Shown: piece by piece, positions 5,900 to 12,624 of the stretch
How positions within the stretch are numbered: position 1 is the first letter of the stretch
How the letters are laid out: the number at the start of each line of letters is the position of its first letter
DNA from: a virus
Lineage: Duplodnaviria; Caudoviricetes
Length of the DNA: 64,000 bases
Reading direction: 5' to 3' (one strand)
IMG/VR virus record: IMGVR_UViG_3300021400_000034
Location: 128,001 to 192,000 of that record
The notes under the pieces: model-generated
Database searches by the model: none
Seen by the model: only the letters and a program-made list of their open reading frames with translations
What the model was told of the DNA's origin: nothing
Translations under genes and position numbers: made by a program

Positions 5900-5960
5900 T
5901 AGATCCTAACAGCAATTCAAAGCACATTCCTGTTAAGAATCGAAAGCTAAAATGGATCTA
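5900..5960 (+). ncRNA. ACAGCAA-stem element E1 carrying an Asn(GTT) anticodon stem-loop
   Basis: TAGATCC/GGATCTA stem, TAACAGCAA, ATTC-CTGTTAA-GAAT. Confidence 0.7.
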
Positions 5961-5967
5961 GTCATTT

Positions 5968-6040
5968 CAGTCTGTACGTCAATTGGTAGACGGATGGTTT
6001 TGGGAACCATTAGTTGAGTGTTCGAGTCACTCCAGACTGA
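5968..6040 (+). tRNA. tRNA-Pro(TGG)
   Basis: Cloverleaf. Confidence 0.88.
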
Positions 6041-6161
6041 CTACTAAAAGAGGGACAAGAGGCTTCCACCTCCTGATCGAATTTCGTCGTTCGATCTCAC
6101 CTCTATACAATATGAGGATATGGAAGAATCCTCGTAAAAATAAAGATAACAGAGGCGAATT

Positions 6162-6944
6162 ATGATTTGCGAAAATTGCGGAAAAGAACATGACGGTTCT
6201 TACGGAAGTGGAAGATTCTGCTCTAGAGATTGCAGATTTTCTTATATAGGTAAACAGACTAACAAGAATGGTAAACATACTGGTCATCCTAATTATAATA
6301 CTGGAAGGACTCATTTTACTGCTTCACCAGATGGATGGAAATGCAAATGGTGTGATTTAGTCTTTAGAACTAGACGTGAACGTTCAAAACATTCAAATGA
6401 AGTTCATATACGCGATAAAAAGCATCCTTGGAATTATGGACTAACCAAAGATACTTCTAAAAAGGTAAAAGAGAGTACAGAATTAGTTAGGGAACTATAC
6501 AAAGCTGGAAAAATTCGTAAACCTGACAAAAAATTAGTATGGACGGAAGAGAGAAGACAAAGACAATCTGATAAGAAAAAGAAGTTTTATTCTGAACATC
6601 CAGAAGCACATCCAAATCGAAAATTAGCTAATAATCGTTCTAAGATGAGTTATCCAGAAAAGATAGTTTACGATTGGCTTACTGAGAAAAACATATCTTT
6701 TGAACATAATAAGCTGATAAGAACTAAAACTATTACGAGATATGTAGATTTTTATCTAAAAGACAATAATCTTATAATAGAAGTTGATGGAGAATTTTGG
6801 CACAATAGAAAGATTGAAAAAGATAAAAAGAAAGATTTTGAAGCCGAAGAAGCCGGTTATACTACTCTCCGAATAAAAGCAAAAGAGAGGATAATAGACC
6901 GATTAAATGACTTCTTCAGCTATCATATAAAAACGCTGGAATAG
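6162..6944 (+). CDS. Homing endonuclease (Zn fingers + DUF559/Vsr-like PD-(D/E)xK domain)
   Basis: CENC, CSRDC, CKWC; SYPE...VDFY...IIEVDGEFWH; AT-rich; stop lies inside the next tRNA. Confidence 0.75.
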   Translation: MICENCGKEHDGSYGSGRFCSRDCRFSYIGKQTNKNGKHTGHPNYNTGRTHFTASPDGWKCKWCDLVFRTRRERSKHSNEVHIRDKKHPWNYGLTKDTSKKVKESTELVRELYKAGKIRKPDKKLVWTEERRQRQSDKKKKFYSEHPEAHPNRKLANNRSKMSYPEKIVYDWLTEKNISFEHNKLIRTKTITRYVDFYLKDNNLIIEVDGEFWHNRKIEKDKKKDFEAEEAGYTTLRIKAKERIIDRLNDFFSYHIKTLE

Positions 6945-7007
6945 CTCAGCTGGTAGAGCAGGGCTTTCGTAAAGCTCAGGTCGGCAGTTCGAGCCTGTCT
7001 TCCAGCG
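6935..7007 (+). tRNA. tRNA-Thr(CGT)
   Basis: Cloverleaf. Confidence 0.88.
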
Positions 7008-7019
7008 CTACTGAAATTA

Positions 7020-7142
7020 GAGATGGTAACAGCAATTCTCTTTAGGCTGGTAACCTCGTGGTCGCGGGTTCGAGTCCCGTCTGGTCAGTCTCCGGATTGA
7101 TCGGTAGCTCAGTTGGTAGAGCACGTACAAGAAATCCATCTC
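7020..7142 (+). ncRNA. Element E2: circularly permuted tRNA(GGT)
   Basis: GAGATGG/CCATCTC stem, AACAGCAA; 3' piece 7044-7088 precedes 5' piece 7098-7125. Confidence 0.8.
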
Positions 7143-7148
7143 GTCTTT

Positions 7149-7222
7149 GGTGCCGTGGTGAAGTGGCCTAACACATCGGTCTGTCTAACCGACATACGCG
7201 AGTTCGAATCTCGCCGGCATCG
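7149..7222 (+). tRNA. tRNA-Asp(GTC)
   Basis: Cloverleaf. Confidence 0.88.
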
Positions 7223-7225
7223 CTA

Positions 7226-7555
7226 TGATCTGAAGGAGAGACTCTAGCAATAGTGGAGTCGCTATCCTTGCAAAGGCCGCTACATTGAGCGTTACTTCGC
7301 CGTCAATTGGATCCAATGGAAGGACGCTTACTGGTTGATCAGCAGAAGTCAATTCGACGTCAACATGATGTCACCGACGAAGGCTGTGATGGAGTCAGGG
7401 GAGAGCATAGGCATAAGCATCCTGGCCCGGCCGCTGGAATCTCGAATTCATTTCAACCATCGAACGAGTCCGATGGTTCTATCGCGAAAAATAACGGCAT
7501 AAGCGCGAGACAGGTAAAGTCTTCGGTCACAAGACTATAAATGACCGGCCGTACA
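7226..7555 (+). ncRNA. Unknown ~300-nt structured RNA
   Basis: 5' TGATCTGAAGG pairs with TCTTCGGTCA (7520-7529); internal hairpins; between tRNAs. Confidence 0.4.
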
Positions 7556-7556
7556 A

Positions 7557-7640
7557 GTCAGCTTCGGATAGCGGCAATTCCAGGAGACTGTAAATCTCCT
7601 GCCTTAACGGGCTTCGTAGGTTCGAGTCCTACAGCTGGCA
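7557..7640 (+). tRNA. tRNA-Tyr(GTA)
   Basis: Type II cloverleaf. Confidence 0.9.
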
Positions 7641-7647
7641 CTAATCC

Positions 7648-7823
7648 ATAGCGTCTGAATTCAAGTACGTATCTTCGTAGCTCAGTTGGTAGAGCGCAGG
7701 CCGAGAGGGCCTGAGGCGGTGGTTCGAGTCCATTCGTCGACCGTGAAGAGGGGGAGGCTTGGAGAGGATATCGGTTGAACTGTGAACTCGAGATAGCTTT
7801 TCACTCTTATCCTCAGCGCTATT
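7648..7823 (+). ncRNA. tRNA-like domain nested in a larger closed RNA
   Basis: Outer ATAGCG/CGCTAT stem; canonical D and T arms; AC loop lacks U33; poor acceptor stem. Confidence 0.55.
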
Positions 7824-7825
7824 AT

Positions 7826-7898
7826 GCTGGAATAGCTCAATTGGCAGAGCGTCGCCTTTGTAACGCGAGGGTTGGGAGTTCGATTCTCTCTTCCAGCG
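7826..7898 (+). tRNA. tRNA-Thr(TGT)
   Basis: Cloverleaf. Confidence 0.85.
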
Positions 7899-7959
7899 CT
7901 ATAATGAAAAGAATTGTAAAAGTTTTCTAAATCTTGGCTTTATCGATATAAATAGACAG

Positions 7960-8589
7960 ATGGTTCACTACACTGTCTATAAGATAACAAATCTTCTAAA
8001 CGGGATGATCTACATCGGTAAGCACAAGACGGAGAATCTGGACGATTCTTACATGGGATCTTCTGAGTGGTTGAAGTCTTCTATCAAGAAGCACGGAATA
8101 GAGAACTACAAGAAAGAGATTCTATTCGACTTCGAGACAAAAGAAGAGATGGACTTGAAGGAGAAAGAGCTAGTCAACGAAGAGTTCGTCAGACGCAAAG
8201 ATACATACAATCTGAACACTGGCGGAACTGGAGGCTGGTTCGCATGTAACAGCTCTGGTCTGAATCATTCGGCTGGTCAACATCTTCTCTCAGGCGAGAG
8301 ATGTCGGAAGGATCCAGAATACCGGAAGAAGTTCTGCGAGAAAGTGAGCGAGGGACTAAAGAAATATTACGAAGATCCAGAACATCGTCTCTATGGCGTC
8401 AAGAACCCTAGATACGGAATTCAGCTCACTCCGGAAGAGAAAGCGAGACTCAGCGCATCTCATTCTGGAAAGAAGAACGGTTCTTACGGTTCGCACTGGA
8501 TAACGAACCCGAAGCTGAAGAAGAACATGAGACTGAAAGGACTTGTGAAACTTCCAAGAGGTTGGAAGTTCGGAAGAAAGAAGTATTAA
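7960..8589 (+). CDS. GIY-YIG homing endonuclease (Seg-like)
   Basis: VYKITN..NGMIYIGKH...YMGS...YNL; late promoter at 7947. Confidence 0.9.
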   Translation: MVHYTVYKITNLLNGMIYIGKHKTENLDDSYMGSSEWLKSSIKKHGIENYKKEILFDFETKEEMDLKEKELVNEEFVRRKDTYNLNTGGTGGWFACNSSGLNHSAGQHLLSGERCRKDPEYRKKFCEKVSEGLKKYYEDPEHRLYGVKNPRYGIQLTPEEKARLSASHSGKKNGSYGSHWITNPKLKKNMRLKGLVKLPRGWKFGRKKY

Positions 8590-8592
8590 CGA

Positions 8593-8664
8593 CGCGGAGT
8601 GGAGGAGTGGTTTCCTTGAAGGGTTCATACCCCTTAGACCCCGGTTCGAGTCCGGGCTCCGCTA
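8593..8664 (+). tRNA. Initiator tRNA-fMet(CAT)
   Basis: C1 mismatch, three G-C pairs in the anticodon stem. Confidence 0.8.
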
Positions 8665-8669
8665 CTAAT

Positions 8670-8935
8670 TTTAGTCAAGTCAATGTCGGGCCGTTTGACT
8701 CGCGCTTCGATGTAACGACATACTTGGCAAGGCGTCAGTGAAGTGATGGCCATCGCGGATCTTTCGCCGGATCTTTTAAAGCGTAGCGCATGTACCGATA
8801 GAGATCTCCTGAGGTTGCGAACTCTCTTGATCTTGACAAGCAGGTAGCTTCGGTCCCGTCGTTGAGACGGTGCAAAAAGTCTCAGTCGTCGCAACGGCTG
8901 TGATCGCGGTTCGAATCCGTCGTGCGTGACACAAT
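8670..8935 (+). ncRNA. Unknown ~260-nt structured RNA ending in a T-arm-like hairpin
   Basis: Hairpins, TGAGAC/GTCTCA alternative pairing, GCGGTTCGAATCCGT near the 3' end. Confidence 0.35.
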
Positions 8936-8938
8936 TTA

Positions 8939-9037
8939 GAGATACCGACAGCAATTCATTGTTAGTGGTTCGAATCCATAAGCTGAATAGCTGCGGTCTG
9001 GCGCAAGTCAGATGGGCAATACAAACAGCGGTATCTC
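8939..9037 (+). ncRNA. Element E3: T-arm-first degenerate permuted tRNA-like payload
   Basis: GAGATACCG/CGGTATCTC stem, ACAGCAA, GTGGTTCGAATCCAT followed by two hairpins. Confidence 0.7.
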
Positions 9038-9042
9038 GTCAT

Positions 9043-9114
9043 GGTCCCTTCGGCCAGTGGTTAAGCCATCGCACTTTCTATGCGAGGACCCCAGTTCGAC
9101 TCTGGGAGGGACTA
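9043..9114 (+). tRNA. tRNA-Glu(TTC)
   Basis: Cloverleaf. Confidence 0.88.
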
Positions 9115-9229
9115 CTAAGAGTGACTCGGTGGGTGTTCGCGGCTGATAGTCCTAACACACCTCCGGCAACACTTCGAACTAGATGACTAGCTACTGCGAC
9201 GAGTTCGAAGGAGAACACTCTTCGTTTTT

Positions 9230-9299
9230 GAGATAGGTACAGCAATGATCACCAACTCTGCTCCATCATGCGGTTCGTGGCGTTAGGCCACTCTATCTC
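9230..9299 (+). ncRNA. Element E4 (payload unclear)
   Basis: GAGATAG/CTATCTC stem, GTACAGCAA. Confidence 0.65.
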
Positions 9300-9366
9300 G
9301 TAAACTTGGGTGCGCGGTCGGAGGAAGCCCTCCGGAGTTTCTCAATTCTCGAAAAATTGATCATAT

Positions 9367-9439
9367 CCCGGTATAGTTCAGTTGGTAGAACAGCTCCTTC
9401 ATACGGAGACGGTCGCAGGTTCAAGTCCTGCTATCGGAA
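9367..9439 (+). tRNA. tRNA-Met/Ile2(CAT)
   Basis: Cloverleaf, loop TTCATAC. Confidence 0.78.
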
Positions 9440-9445
9440 CTATAT

Positions 9446-9518
9446 GCCTCGCTGGCGCAATTGGTAGCGCAAGGCACTCTTAATGCTTGGGTTGAAGGTT
9501 CGAGTCCTTCGCGGGGTA
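9446..9518 (+). tRNA. tRNA-Lys(CTT)
   Basis: Cloverleaf. Confidence 0.9.
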
Positions 9519-9646
9519 CTAAAATCTATCTCATGCTTATTAAGCTACGGCATGAGCTCTAGCTATGTTTCGTCCGAGAGCCATCAGGTATAAAAAGCGG
9601 TCAGGGCACGGTTCTTGCTCTAAAGCGGTCGCTAGCATGAACTTTT

Positions 9647-9719
9647 CTCCGGTTAACTCAGCGGTTAGAGTGCCATCCTTACAAGTTGGAAGTCCGGGGT
9701 TCGAATCCCTGATCGGAGA
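9647..9719 (+). tRNA. tRNA-Val(TAC)
   Basis: Cloverleaf. Confidence 0.88.
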
Positions 9720-9725
9720 CTACTA

Positions 9726-9793
9726 AAGATCCTAACTGCAAATTTCTTATAACATCCGATTGGTAATCAGACTACGTTAGAAAAATGGATCTT
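9726..9793 (+). ncRNA. Element E5 carrying a Thr(GGT) anticodon stem-loop
   Basis: AAGATCC/GGATCTT stem, TAACTGCAA, TCCGA-TTGGTAA-TCAGA. Confidence 0.68.
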
Positions 9794-9804
9794 GAAATTT
9801 TTAT

Positions 9805-9878
9805 CGGCATCTAGCGCAATTGGTTAGAGCACTGCTCTGATAAGGCAGAGGTTTTTGGTTCAAGTCCAAGGTTGCCGA
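9805..9878 (+). tRNA. tRNA-Ile(GAT)
   Basis: Cloverleaf. Confidence 0.85.
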
Positions 9879-9882
9879 CTAA

Positions 9883-9938
9883 GAGGTTCTTACAGCAATT
9901 CTACAATCTTCTTTTTGGTTAAGAAAAAAAGGAATCTC
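9883..9938 (+). ncRNA. Element E6 carrying a Pro(TGG)-like anticodon stem-loop
   Basis: GAGGTTCT/GGAATCTC stem, TACAGCAA, TTCTT-TTTGGTT-AAGAA. Confidence 0.62.
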
Positions 9939-9944
9939 GATTAT

Positions 9945-10018
9945 CCACCTATAGCTCAGAACGGTAGAGCGGAAGACTGAAGATCTTCGCGTCGGAGTCT
10001 CGAACCCTCCTAGGTGGA
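9945..10018 (+). tRNA. tRNA-Phe(GAA)
   Basis: Cloverleaf with atypical T loop. Confidence 0.8.
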
Positions 10019-10027
10019 CTACAATAT

Positions 10028-10109
10028 CCCCTCGTGGCGGAACTGGTAGACGCGCCTGACTTAGGATCAGGAGCCGAGAGGCGTGCAGGTTCGAGTCCTG
10101 CCGAGGGGA
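10028..10109 (+). tRNA. tRNA-Leu(TAG)
   Basis: Type II cloverleaf. Confidence 0.92.
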
Positions 10110-10113
10110 CTAT

Positions 10114-10223
10114 AAGATAACAGACAGCAATCATCTACCCCAAAGCGGCTATGTTGGTGAAAGTCCAGCCGTCGATGTATGTCGGCGTCATCTAATCTAG
10201 GATTCCGCTCAAAATGTCATCTT
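10114..10223 (+). ncRNA. Element E7: permuted tRNA opened in the anticodon loop (Gly CCC-like)
   Basis: AAGATAACA/TGTCATCTT stem, GACAGCAA; AGCGG-T arm-acceptor hairpin-D arm-CCGCT. Confidence 0.7.
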
Positions 10224-10229
10224 GACTAT

Positions 10230-10303
10230 ACTCCGTTGGTGTAATGGACTTAGCATACGGGCCTACGAAGCCCTTGATCCAAGTTCGAATCTTGGACGGA
10301 GTA
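10230..10303 (+). tRNA. tRNA-Arg(ACG)
   Basis: Cloverleaf. Confidence 0.88.
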
Positions 10304-10315
10304 CTATTCCATGAT

Positions 10316-10436
10316 TAGATCCAAACTGCAACTCTCAAATCGTTACCATCAATCAACGGCCAAGCATCTCGGGATGCGCCTAGCTACATGGACTGGGAGA
10401 GGAGGGTTCGAATCCCCGGAAAATGAATCGGATCTA
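10316..10436 (+). ncRNA. Element E8 with a T-arm-containing payload
   Basis: TAGATCC/GGATCTA stem, AACTGCAA, GGGTTCGAATCCC. Confidence 0.65.
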
Positions 10437-10623
10437 GCTAAGCTCTCGATGCTGCTGACATTACGTCTAAATCGGAAAAACGCTATTCCATGTCTCGTGA
10501 AAGATATAAGCGAGAAGCAAGATAGTTAGCTCTGCATCGTCGATGCTAAGAGAGACGATGTCGTCATATATCCTCTGAACGGTCTTCGAGACAAGCGCTA
10601 AATCAACGCACAGGATAAATTAA

Positions 10624-10696
10624 GCTGACGTGCCGAAGTGGGAACGGAGGAGTCTGCAAAACTTTCTATGAGTGGGTTCGATTCCTACCGTCAGCT
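10624..10696 (+). tRNA. tRNA-Cys(GCA)
   Basis: Cloverleaf, U73. Confidence 0.88.
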
Positions 10697-10701
10697 CTAT
10701 A

Positions 10702-10811
10702 CAAGATGTCAACCGCAATTCCTTTCCAGGGTAGCTCTAGAGGTAGAGCACCGTCCTTGAGGCGGAAGAAGCTGGTTCGATCCCAGCCCCGGGAGCACAG
10801 ACGGCATCTTG
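10702..10811 (+). ncRNA. Element E9: whole tRNA-like payload with a 5-nt anticodon loop
   Basis: CAAGATGTC/GGCATCTTG stem, AACCGCAA, CCGTC-CTTGA-GGCGG. Confidence 0.7.
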
Positions 10812-10822
10812 ACAATTTAAAT

Positions 10823-10906
10823 CGGGCTATTACCTTGGGCCGGACTCATAACCCGGGCCGTTAAAATCCAGGGCGGTGCGGAGAGGTTCGACTCCTCGTG
10901 GCCCGA
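10823..10906 (+). tRNA. D-armless tRNA(CAT)-like RNA with long variable arm
   Basis: CGGGCTA/TGGCCCG acceptor, CTCATAA loop, T arm, no D stem. Confidence 0.55.
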
Positions 10907-10909
10907 TAA

Positions 10910-10994
10910 GGAGGACTACACTAATTGGTAAGTGACCACGGTGCTAACGTGGCGCCTCGAAAGAGGCTTCCAGGTTCGAGCCCTGGGTCCTCCG
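10910..10994 (+). tRNA. tRNA-Ser(GCT)
   Basis: Type II cloverleaf. Confidence 0.88.
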
Positions 10995-11076
10995 CTAAAG
11001 ATCTTAGGAGTCGTTGCCCTAAGCAACGTGGAGCGCACGCGCCGGTACCGTCCAGAGCCGTCAAATCTGGACTTTT

Positions 11077-11167
11077 GGAAGTGTGCCAGAGTCTGGCTTA
11101 TCGGACCGGTCTTGAAAACCGAGGGCGGTACCCATTCCGCACGGGGGTTCGAATCCCTCCACTTCCT
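11077..11167 (+). tRNA. tRNA-Ser(TGA)
   Basis: Type II cloverleaf. Confidence 0.88.
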
Positions 11168-11172
11168 CTATC

Positions 11173-11243
11173 GCGTCCTTGATGTAGTGGTAGCACTTCT
11201 CATTGCCTGTGAGAAAGCGCCAGTTCGAATCTGGCAGGACGCT
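11173..11243 (+). tRNA. tRNA-Gly(GCC)
   Basis: Cloverleaf. Confidence 0.85.
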
Positions 11244-11266
11244 TACTTTTCTATATTTAAAATACA

Positions 11267-11348
11267 GAGATAGACACAGCAATCCTTTTGGATAACGTAA
11301 TGATCTGCAAAATCAAAGCTAGACGGTCCAAATCCGTCAATCTATCTC
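11267..11348 (+). ncRNA. Element E10: Cys(GCA) anticodon arm + T-like arm
   Basis: GAGATAGA/TCTATCTC stem, CACAGCAA, TGAT-CTGCAAA-ATCA, GACGG-TCCAAAT-CCGTC. Confidence 0.7.
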
Positions 11349-11356
11349 GTTCATAA

Positions 11357-11427
11357 GCACCACTGGTCTAAAAGTATGATCAAACTCTTCCAAAGTTTGG
11401 GAACCGGGGCAGTACCGGTGTGGTGCT
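11357..11427 (+). tRNA. tRNA-Gly(TCC)
   Basis: Cloverleaf with atypical T loop GGCAGTA. Confidence 0.75.
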
Positions 11428-11430
11428 CTA

Positions 11431-11545
11431 GAGATTCCAACAGCAAACTCTGGTTTTTTCCGCCGTTGGGAAAATAGCTCAATTGGTAGAGCGCTCGTCA
11501 CTATGACGAGAGGTTACGGGTTCGAGTCCCGCTAAAGTGAATCTC
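11431..11545 (+). ncRNA. Element E11: tRNA permuted between T arm and acceptor
   Basis: GAGATTC/GAATCTC stem, AACAGCAA; acceptor hairpin, then D, AC and T arms. Confidence 0.72.
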
Positions 11546-11552
11546 GTCTTTT

Positions 11553-11626
11553 GGCTCTGTCGAATAACTGGTTCAGTTCGTTAGCCTCTCAAGCTAGAAA
11601 TTCGGGTTCAAGTCCCGACAGAGCTA
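11553..11626 (+). tRNA. tRNA-Glu(CTC)
   Basis: Cloverleaf. Confidence 0.88.
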
Positions 11627-11632
11627 TACATC

Positions 11633-11706
11633 CCCGCAGTAGTGTGAATTGGTTAGCACGCCTGCTTGTGGCGCAGGAAGTTCGGGTTCGAATCTCGGCT
11701 ATGGGA
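11633..11706 (+). tRNA. tRNA-His(GTG)
   Basis: Cloverleaf; no encoded G-1, A73. Confidence 0.8.
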
Positions 11707-11844
11707 CTAAGTCACTGATGAAGATGATGTAAGTAAGCCCGTCCAAGGTAGATCCTTTTGGGGCTAGTGCAGTAGCATAAGTTGCGGTATAGAGGCTGAG
11801 AATGCGTACAGGATAGCTCAGTAATGCGTCATCAGAGACTTTCA

Positions 11845-12225
11845 ATGATAGGCACAGCAACTCTAACACGTTCAATACATCAAATGCTGACGTGCAGAGC
11901 TACGGGAAATTGCCTTGATCGACGAGGACAGGGCCATGGTCGAGCAGCGCAGCTGAATCTCGATCACCTTGACGGACGGTCAGAACGTTCGTCTAACTTC
12001 CGGGCAGACTGCTCGGTAAGATCTTGCCCGTCTCTGATAGTTCCAAGACGAAGAACTTGGTGCTTGCTCTAATAAGTAAGGAGATAGTGCTGGTGACACC
12101 AGATAGCGTCAATGAGAAACCGTTGACTGATCTTTTGTAAGCTGCTATTCGAATCAAGAGAGAAGCGACACGAAGCAGCGGAGACTGAAAAGACAGCAAA
12201 CTCTAATCGGTCTCGTCCCTATCAT
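11845..12225 (+). ncRNA. Element E12: ~380-nt element with hairpin-dense payload
   Basis: ATGATAGG/CCTATCAT stem, CACAGCAACTCTAA. Confidence 0.55.
12181..12214 (+). ncRNA. Element E13: minimal empty element nested in E12
   Basis: GAGACTGA/TCGGTCTC stem, GACAGCAAACTCTAA. Confidence 0.55.
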
Positions 12226-12231
12226 GTTTTC

Positions 12232-12302
12232 TGCCCGTTGGTATAACGGTATTACACCTGACTCTGACTCAGGTGACGGTGGTCCGACTCCATCACGGGC
12301 AA
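12232..12302 (+). tRNA. tRNA-Gln(CTG)
   Basis: Cloverleaf. Confidence 0.85.
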
Positions 12303-12420
12303 TATGGAATGATAAGGTTCAGCCTCTGTTCTAGAGATCGGTGAATTCGCGACACTTCATCGAGATCGAGAACTACCACCAGCACGATCTGTCTTCGAAG
12401 CGGATCAAAAGAGGCATTCT

Positions 12421-12492
12421 AGGGAATTCGTATATCGGTTATTACGGCGGTCTCCAAAACCGTTCAGCTCTGTTCGACTCGGAGATTCCCTG
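12421..12492 (+). tRNA. tRNA-Trp(CCA)
   Basis: Cloverleaf. Confidence 0.85.
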
Positions 12493-12495
12493 CTA

Positions 12496-12624
12496 GAGAT
12501 TCTAACAGCAGAACGGTCTGTAAAACCGTTGGCTTTCGCCTTCGCAGGTTCGAATCCTGTCCACCTCCATACGAGGAGGTGTGCCCGAGCTGGTCAAAGG
12601 GGACGGTCCGCTAAAATGAATCTC
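12496..12624 (+). ncRNA. Element E14: circularly permuted tRNA-Tyr(GTA)
   Basis: GAGATTC/GAATCTC stem, AACAGCA; AC-V-T arms, CACCTCCA, linker, GGAGGTG, D arm; ACGGTC duplicated. Confidence 0.8.

What the first reader, a model, noticed from the sequence alone, without database searches (positions are those of the whole stretch)
12496..12624. Permuted tRNA-Tyr with terminal redundancy hints at how payloads are acquired
Seen: the order is AC arm (GTA), V arm, T arm, CACCTCCA, TACGA, GGAGGTG, D arm, with ACGGTC at both ends (12513-12518, 12603-12608). Its sequence differs from the phage's own Tyr gene at 7557. Inference: slightly more than one turn of a circular or tandem tRNA-Tyr of foreign (host?) origin was captured. 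tRNA-Tyr is an established target of retron Ec78 PtuAB.
Basis: partly seen in the sequence, partly recalled or inferred. Interest (0 to 1): 0.8.

Follow-up and report, generated by a model that had tools for sequence, protein, structure and literature searches.

The report
Rotated tRNA-Tyr mimic on Ro60-type handle
A large rumen phage carries a small RNA gene shaped like a tyrosine tRNA written in rotated order and clamped by a conserved end-stem ("handle"); comparison with related phages shows it is a maintained, folded RNA, most likely a partner of the phage's Ro60-like ring protein, and not a freshly captured piece of host tRNA.

Summary
The permuted tRNA-Tyr and the 6-nt repeat are at the stated coordinates. 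They are not an assembly artefact: identical in an independent study and in a second phage species. The element is one of about 14 stem-closed ACAGCAA "handle" RNAs in the tRNA cluster; one more handle lies in the leader of the phage's DUF2828 gene, whose model folds like Ro60 (Z 22). Twelve alleles from related phages keep the fold: 99.4% of cells paired, eight different perfect 7-bp acceptor stems, and invariant G1:C72, A73 and one extra C after the T stem. The repeat is old (4-6 nt in 10 of 12 alleles) and structural: the 3' copy covaries with the anticodon stem and closes the cloverleaf, while the 5' copy forms the GUA hairpin. So it is not a fresh capture scar; no donor, empty handle or PtuAB link was found. 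Best reading: a YrlA-like tRNA-Tyr mimic bound by DUF2828 that, unlike YrlA, keeps its anticodon loop; probably an RNase P substrate and a decoy or tether against tRNA nucleases (inferred). This scan reported the handle/DUF2828 family many times on other DNA; I found no publication describing it.

The parts
12496..12624 (+). Whole handle-clamped, circularly permuted tRNA-Tyr-like RNA gene (129 nt), between tRNA-Trp and tRNA-Leu(GAG)
12496..12502 (+). Handle helix, 5' strand (7 bp with 12618-12624)
   Evidence: 100% paired in 12 alleles, 2 pairs change on both sides
12505..12511 (+). ACAGCAA-type motif (last base G here), putative DUF2828 recognition site
   Evidence: shared by the cluster cassettes and the DUF2828 leader; binding inferred
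12513..12518 (+). 5' copy of the anticodon-stem 5' strand; closes the GUA hairpin with 3-5 bp
   Evidence: 71.7% paired, no covariation at 27:43; positions 28-31 93% identical between lineages
12518..12524 (+). Canonical 7-nt Tyr anticodon loop (GTA at 12520-12522)
   Evidence: unchanged in 9 of 12 alleles; GCA in L088, altered in L086, lost in L075
12525..12529 (+). Anticodon-stem 3' strand, shared by both repeat copies
12530..12541 (+). Long variable arm (class II, Tyr type)
   Evidence: 3 bp, 100% paired, 2 pairs covary
12544..12560 (+). T arm
12561..12561 (+). Invariant extra C between T stem and acceptor strand (non-tRNA feature)
   Evidence: 12 of 12 alleles
12562..12581 (+). Acceptor hairpin: 7-bp stem with G1:C72, discriminator A73 (12569) and a 5-nt linker sealing it
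   Evidence: 8 distinct stems, all 7/7 paired, 6 of 7 pairs covary; linker 5-22 nt
12584..12601 (+). D arm
   Evidence: 3 bp, 100% paired, 2 pairs covary
12603..12608 (+). 3' copy of the anticodon-stem 5' strand; closes the cloverleaf
   Evidence: 96.7% paired, pair 27:43 covaries
12618..12624 (+). Handle helix, 3' strand, preceded by an A-rich linker 12610-12617
7020..7142 (+). Sister cassette: permuted tRNA mimic with GGT loop, opened at 28/29, acceptor sealed as a 10-bp hairpin
   Evidence: Rfam YrlA 38.2 bits, below the 69 cut-off; anticodon varies among relatives
11431..11545 (+). Sister cassette: tRNA mimic permuted at the T-stem/acceptor junction, non-canonical anticodon arm
5900..12624 (+). 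Span of the handle-RNA family in the tRNA cluster (12 by a relaxed scan, 10 by a strict scan; 12181 and 11845 are two more candidates)

Best explanation
The element is a gene for a Y-RNA-like tRNA mimic. It is co-transcribed in the phage tRNA operon and cut out between tRNA-Trp and tRNA-Leu (inferred). Its two ends pair into a 7-bp helix next to an ACAGCAA-type motif, the handle, which is bound by the phage's Ro60-like DUF2828 protein (inferred from fold and gene linkage). The rest folds into a tRNA-Tyr L-shape in YrlA order (V, T, sealed acceptor, D) (covariation shown). The repeat is structural: the 3' copy closes the cloverleaf, the 5' copy forms the GUA hairpin, and both compete for one strand, giving either a stem nicked at 28/29 (compatible with all intact alleles and identical to the sister cassette) or a two-state switch. 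The 7-bp G1:C72/A73 acceptor should be opened by host RNase P and receive CCA, as M. smegmatis YrlA does (inferred). The extra C and the attached handle make it a poor ribosome substrate, so it most likely displays a tRNA-Tyr look-alike on the Ro ring as decoy or tether for tRNA-directed nucleases and for the Rnl1/kinase repair genes next to DUF2828 (inferred; this last step about 0.4 on its own).
For: Covariation: 99.4% of 360 cells paired, 15 pairs change on both sides, 0/500 shuffles, slid controls 36-47%. 3' copy pairs 96.7% against 71.7% for the 5' copy. Handle occurs only in the tRNA cluster and in the DUF2828 leader in 243 kb, and in the DUF2828 leader of six relatives down to 57% protein identity. 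DUF2828 model (pLDDT 87.4): all 13 Foldseek hits with E <= 0.001 are Ro60/TROVE; Z 22, rmsd 4.1, 393 aligned to Ro60 1yvr. Handle RNAs, including T-acceptor-D mimics, lie just downstream of the homologous gene in Felix O1a and mycobacteriophage Acquire49. Rnl1 gene is two genes upstream of DUF2828 and a CCA/poly(A)-polymerase-family gene is present. YrlA has the same order and a 7-bp stem makes it an RNase P and CCA substrate (PMC4201824). Bas63 gp130, Ro60-like and a counter to the ppl defence system (10.1101/2024.10.10.617714), is a 35%-identical homologue. An unrelated DUF2828 phage has tRNA-Tyr in normal order with CCA and the handle inserted as a 50-nt hairpin flanked by a 4-nt repeat of positions 28-31 (L003:671-808).
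Against: No binding, expression or processing data. DUF2828 gene lies about 78 kb from the cassette. The handle lacks the known Rsr motif. Unconstrained folding does not give the cloverleaf as the minimum. Near-complete conservation of the TyrRS identity set is more than a generic elbow mimic needs. The alleles are related, so counts are not independent events (about 8 lineages).
Confidence: 0.68

Rival explanations
1. A true permuted tRNA gene: the handle is cut off inside the repeated strand, the ends are ligated (phage Rnl1 plus kinase, perhaps guided by DUF2828) into a circle, and RNase P, 3' trimming and CCA addition open it into a decoding, nuclease-resistant back-up tRNA-Tyr, as for permuted tRNAs of algae and archaea.
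For: G1:C72, A73, 7-bp stem and long V arm in all 12 alleles, GUA loop in 9; re-ordered sequence passes ARAGORN; Rnl1 and CCA-family genes present; a cut anywhere in the repeat would regenerate the stem; the possibility was raised for YrlA.
Against: Invariant extra C; alleles with GCA loop or no loop keep the Tyr acceptor; the sister cassette changes anticodon GGT/GAT/GTC/GTT under a sealed 9-10-bp acceptor; the phage has a normal tRNA-Tyr; no RtcB; no bacterial splicing endonuclease is known.
Confidence: 0.12
2. Cleavage-triggered switch or sensor: the 5' copy presents a sacrificial GUA loop; once a host anticodon nuclease cuts it, the 3' copy invades, keeps the RNA folded on DUF2828 and changes the state of the particle.
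For: Both pairings are retained and lie within about 0-4 kcal/mol in the intact alleles; both copies are conserved beyond what a 28/29 nick needs.
Against: The sister cassette has no repeat and L075 works, if it works, without the 5' hairpin; energies omit tertiary contacts; no nuclease identified.
Confidence: 0.12
3. One reading: slightly more than one turn of a circular or tandem foreign tRNA-Tyr was recently captured into a handle, and the repeat is the neutral scar of a payload-acquisition process.
For: Exact 6-nt repeat in the window allele; Bacteroidales-like V arm; L075 carries a different Tyr-type body at the same site and L079 has the payload on another handle at another position, so parts are exchanged.
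Against: Repeat and fold conserved across about 8 lineages with compensatory change; shared extra C; position 27 of the 5' copy is A in all seven lineage representatives whatever its partner, so the sixth matching base is partly coincidence; no exact donor; no empty handle at this site.
Confidence: 0.06
4. Assembly artefact or chance adjacency of two broken tRNA halves.
For: None beyond the odd order.
Against: Identical in independent assemblies and studies; covariation.
Confidence: 0.01

Closest known systems
YrlA Y RNAs with Rsr/Ro60 (Rfam RF02553; PMC4201824; 10.1101/312249)
   Same: Closing stem from the two ends; tRNA-like domain in V, T, sealed acceptor, D order; Ro60-fold protein in the same genome; 7-bp acceptor as in M. 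smegmatis YrlA; proposed origin from dimeric pre-tRNA.
   Different: Different handle (ACAGCAA, no GNCGAAN0-1G); partner is DUF2828/DUF7788, not Pfam TROVE; keeps a full anticodon loop and Tyr identity set, which YrlA lacks; duplicated anticodon-stem strand; no Rfam YrlA match at this element; about 14 partner RNAs.
Permuted tRNA genes of red and green algae and Thermofilum (as summarised in 10.1101/312249)
   Same: 3' half precedes 5' half, short linker seals the acceptor, ends pair beyond the anticodon stem.
   Different: Those are cut by the tRNA splicing endonuclease and yield decoding tRNAs; here a phage, a protein-binding-type handle, an extra nucleotide and alleles without a Tyr anticodon.
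Phage Ro60 systems: Thermus phiLo Ro60 with Yrl1/Yrl2 (PMC12135203) and Bas63 gp130 (10.1101/2024.10.10.617714)
   Same: Phage-encoded Ro60-fold protein with nearby small RNAs; gp130 is a direct homologue and counters a defence system.
   Different: phiLo RNAs use a CGAA motif; no partner RNA was identified for gp130, only suspected among the tRNAs.
Dictyostelid Class I RNAs (PMC7919456)
   Same: Short terminal stem of variable sequence, adjacent unpaired 11-nt motif ending in C-A-A, variable interior.
   Different: Eukaryotic, 42-65 nt, no tRNA-like cargo, bound by an RRM protein; homology not tested.
T5-type phage tRNA-Tyr against retron Eco7/Ec78 PtuAB (PMC11555353, PMC12673091)
   Same: Phage-encoded tRNA-Tyr-shaped RNA with long variable arm.
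   Different: That is a normal tRNA thought to act in translation, in E. coli; no evidence links this rumen phage to PtuAB.

Membership tests
YrlA (RF02553) | tRNA-like domain in order V, T, closed acceptor, D | tested here: met
YrlA (RF02553) | GNCGAAN0-1G Rsr-binding motif near the 5' end | tested here: not met
   absent from the first 30 nt of all 13 cassettes tested
YrlA (RF02553) | Rfam score above gathering (69 bits) | tested here: not met
   no match at 12496-12624; sister cassette 38.2 bits
YrlA (RF02553) | No anticodon loop | tested here: not met
   canonical GUA loop in 9 of 12 alleles
YrlA (RF02553) | Encoded within about 4 kb of a TROVE-domain gene | tested here: not met
   no PF05731 in the genome; DUF2828 gene about 78 kb away, though a handle lies in its leader
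Y RNA (broad sense) | Terminal stem from 5' and 3' ends | tested here: met
   7 bp, 100% paired in 12 alleles
Y RNA (broad sense) | Ro60-fold protein encoded by the same replicon | tested here: met
   predicted model, Z 22 to 1yvr, rmsd 4.1, 393 aligned
Y RNA (broad sense) | Physically bound by that protein | not testable with these tools
   linkage only
Processed permuted tRNA gene | Re-ordered halves give a canonical cloverleaf | tested here: inconclusive
   ARAGORN accepts it, but with one extra base at the T/acceptor junction
Processed permuted tRNA gene | Circular intermediate and mature decoding tRNA | not testable with these tools
   only contigs available; no RNA contig of this phage covers the element
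Processed permuted tRNA gene | Bulge-helix-bulge junction cut by a splicing endonuclease | not tested
   no endonuclease search run; RtcB absent, Rnl1 present
Dictyostelid Class I RNA | Terminal stem plus adjacent unpaired motif ending in C-A-A | tested here: inconclusive
   architecture matches the description; no Rfam match; motif not aligned

The most novel reading that the evidence does not exclude
A phage-encoded permuted tRNA gene that really matures in a bacterium: the Ro60-like DUF2828 protein holds the handle while the RNA is cut within the duplicated strand and ligated by the phage Rnl1/kinase into a circle, which RNase P and CCA addition turn into a working tRNA-Tyr, released on demand when host defence destroys tRNA-Tyr.
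Probability: 0.1. Interest if true: 0.92.

Novelty: new variant of a known kind. Interest (0 to 1): 0.58.

Why it matters
DUF2828 homologues occur in 710 phage records of the collection searched, and one, Bas63 gp130, is an experimentally supported counter-defence gene with no identified RNA partner. The handle RNAs supply candidates. This member is a particularly informative test case: it keeps every classic TyrRS identity element, a 7-bp RNase P-type acceptor and an anticodon loop, so it allows a direct test of the open suggestion that YrlA-like RNAs in bacteria can be processed towards real tRNA (10.1101/312249), and of whether phages use tRNA look-alikes as decoys rather than as replacement tRNAs. 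The family-level picture was already reached repeatedly by this scan; the additions here are the 12-allele analysis showing that the repeat is a selected structural feature, the invariant extra C, and a normal-order Tyr counterpart in an unrelated phage.

Tried and rejected
Donor search: GTDB pattern scan gave nine Actinomycetota tRNA-Tyr genes that share the 5' half only; viral scan for the intact arm gave eight unrelated tRNA-Tyr genes; cultured phages and plasmids gave only 85-87% partial matches. Exact-pattern scans can miss a donor. Neighbour-protein searches of viral contigs found nothing. Expression: RNA-run contigs cover 11723-12219 but not the element, and a 76-nt RNA contig on 12518-12557 has five differences and Bacteroidales-type flanks, so it is another organism's tRNA; no conclusion on transcription. 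Rfam: no match at the element. PDB sequence search with DUF2828: none. TROVE and RtcB: absent. Host: not determined. I first read L079 as an empty site; the cassette there is merely moved about 0.9 kb upstream. I first read the 5' copy as decayed in relatives; it still forms a 3-4-bp hairpin. A GGTCCG at 12605 resembles the vertebrate Ro motif but lies at the 3' end and is explained by the anticodon strand. Literature searches for DUF2828, the motif, Ro60-like phage RNAs and phage permuted tRNAs found no description; the library is incomplete. The DUF2828 leader of G006 has no clear handle, and strict scans of two cultured-phage loci found no convincing one near the gene.

Full report
Setting. 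The window is part of a complete 243,336-nt phage genome with 33 ARAGORN tRNA genes between window 3497 and 12715. Matching assemblies and runs come from ruminant gut samples. The host was not determined.

Observation. The element is as described: anticodon arm, V arm, T arm, acceptor 3' strand with A73, a 5-nt linker, acceptor 5' strand, D arm, and ACGGTC at 12513-12518 and 12603-12608. Re-ordered, it is accepted as tRNA-Tyr(gta) and differs from the phage's own Tyr gene; it has one extra C (12561) between T stem and acceptor. It is real: a second sample's contig spans 11589-12755 without a difference, a contig from another study has none inside the element, and the same 129 nt occur in a different phage species whose flanking Trp and Leu genes differ.

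The frame around it. The permuted tRNA sits inside a 7-bp helix formed by 12496-12502 and 12618-12624, followed on the 5' side by an ACAGCAA-type motif. I call this the handle, borrowing the word from earlier notes of this scan. Twelve such cassettes are found in the cluster by a relaxed scan. A strict genome-wide scan finds ten in the cluster (null mean 0.09, maximum 1) and exactly one elsewhere, at genome 62739-62791, between the promoter-like site and the ribosome-binding site of a DUF2828/DUF7788 gene. The same leader hairpin precedes the gene in six relatives, with a different helix sequence in the two most distant. The predicted structure of the protein (pLDDT 87.4) matches only Ro60/TROVE proteins at E <= 0.001, with Z 22, rmsd 4.1 over 393 residues against Xenopus Ro60. 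A T4-type RNA ligase 1 gene lies two genes upstream, a P-loop kinase (by motif) a little further, and a CCA/poly(A)-polymerase-family gene is present; TROVE and RtcB are not. In Felix O1a and mycobacteriophage Acquire49, handle RNAs with T-acceptor-D cargo lie directly after the homologous gene. Bas63 gp130, reported as Ro60-like and a counter to the ppl defence system (10.1101/2024.10.10.617714), is 35% identical over residues 16-494.

What the relatives show. I collected 12 distinct alleles, about 8 lineages, of this cassette. With the cloverleaf closed by the 3' copy, 99.4% of 360 cells are paired, 15 of 30 pairs change on both sides, no shuffle of 500 reaches this, and slid controls give 36-47% (related sequences inflate such counts). 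There are eight different acceptor stems, each 7 of 7 paired, against a mean of 4.6 when strands are swapped between alleles. G1:C72, A73, the following TA and the extra C are invariant, while the linker ranges from 5 to 22 nt. G1:C72, A73, GUA and a long variable arm are the identity elements of bacterial tRNA-Tyr (established knowledge).

The terminal repeat. It is 6 nt in three alleles, 5 in four, 4 in three, 2 in one decaying allele and absent in L075. The 3' copy pairs with the anticodon 3' strand in 96.7% of cells and covaries at 27:43; the 5' copy pairs in 71.7%, keeps A27 regardless of partner, but retains 3-5 pairs next to the loop. Both folds lie within about 0-4 kcal/mol in intact alleles. 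One arrangement fits all intact alleles: pairs 29-31 from the 5' copy and 27-28 from the 3' copy, that is a complete anticodon arm nicked at 28/29 where the handle leaves. The sister cassette at 7020-7142 has exactly this nick with no repeat, and its anticodon drifts among GGT, GAT, GTC and GTT while the stem covaries and the acceptor stays sealed. An unrelated DUF2828 phage carries the circular permutation of our RNA: tRNA-Tyr in normal order with encoded CCA and a 50-nt handle hairpin between D arm and anticodon hairpin, flanked by a 4-nt repeat of positions 28-31; the next gene looks like the same design for Asn. This is one example and a 4-nt repeat could be chance.

Recent capture is not supported: the repeat is ancient and selected, all alleles share a base that real tRNAs lack, no donor was found, and the orthologous site holds either this RNA, a variant with another Tyr-type body (L075) or nothing because the cassette has moved (L079). 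Whole cassettes and parts are evidently exchanged between phages, which ordinary recombination explains. A remote origin from a tandem pre-tRNA is plausible, fits the spacer-like linker and was proposed for YrlA before. The retron link is only a possibility: Eco7 rescue was attributed to a translating tRNA, the cut is in the variable loop, and the host here is unknown.

Mechanism. Shown: sequence, conservation, covariation, predicted Ro60 fold, handle-gene linkage. Inferred: excision from the tRNA operon transcript, binding of the handle by DUF2828 (and autoregulation through the leader copy), opening of the 7-bp acceptor by RNase P with CCA addition as for M. smegmatis YrlA, exclusion from translation by the extra C and the handle, and a role as decoy or tether in the conflict over tRNA cleavage and repair. 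I put 0.68 on the Y-like mimic, 0.12 on maturation to a decoding tRNA through a circle, 0.12 on a cleavage-triggered switch as the main function, and 0.06 on a neutral capture scar.

Comparison and novelty. It works like YrlA but is not a member: the Rsr motif, Rfam score, TROVE neighbour and lack of anticodon are all not met. I found no paper on the handle family. This scan has reported the handle/DUF2828 family on many other genomes, including permuted and handle-inserted forms; those notes are not independent evidence, and my reading was recorded before seeing them. Verdict: real, a new variant of a known kind, interest 0.58.

Noticed in passing
G000:C1:62739-62791 (L002:1367-1419), outside the window: Handle hairpin between promoter-like site and ribosome-binding site of the DUF2828 gene, conserved in six relatives; suggests autoregulation.
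   Followed up: partly
window 7020-7142: Permuted sister RNA whose anticodon is GGT, GAT, GTC or GTT in different relatives under a covarying stem; in L033 it is interrupted in the T loop by an AT-rich insertion.
   Followed up: partly
L003:671-808 and 811-927: Normal-order tRNA-Tyr and tRNA-Asn-like genes with CCA and a handle-like hairpin inserted in the anticodon stem, in a DUF2828 phage; both missed by ARAGORN.
   Followed up: partly
window 11431-11545: tRNA mimic permuted between T stem and acceptor; the anticodon-arm hairpin differs in sequence in nearly every relative but stays paired.
   Followed up: no
window 12421-12493: tRNA-Trp core is replaced between relatives while the acceptor ends and position stay; the window's Trp anticodon arm matches the Tyr cassette arm at 15 of 17 bases.
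   Followed up: partly
window 7557-7641 and relatives: The regular tRNA-Tyr gene occurs as at least four unrelated sequences at the same position in related phages, and has lost the GUA loop in L082 and is altered in L075.
   Followed up: no
window 11700-12230: ORF-poor structured stretch starting with a handle-like motif at 11845, conserved in relatives, and the only part covered by RNA-run contigs (11723-12219).
   Followed up: no
window 10703-10810: The ARAGORN call tRNA-Leu(gag) at 10724 lies inside a handle and has a variable anticodon arm in relatives; probably a mimic, not a tRNA.
   Followed up: partly
window 6162-6944 and 7960-8589: DUF559/Vsr-like and GIY-YIG endonuclease genes inserted in the tRNA cluster, present or absent among relatives.
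   Followed up: no
window 14850, 17366, 19855: 44-nt repeated promoter-like element upstream of gene blocks.
   Followed up: no
L086:8698-8728: tRNA-Trp largely deleted and the Tyr cassette decaying (loop and both copies mutated) in one relative.
   Followed up: partly
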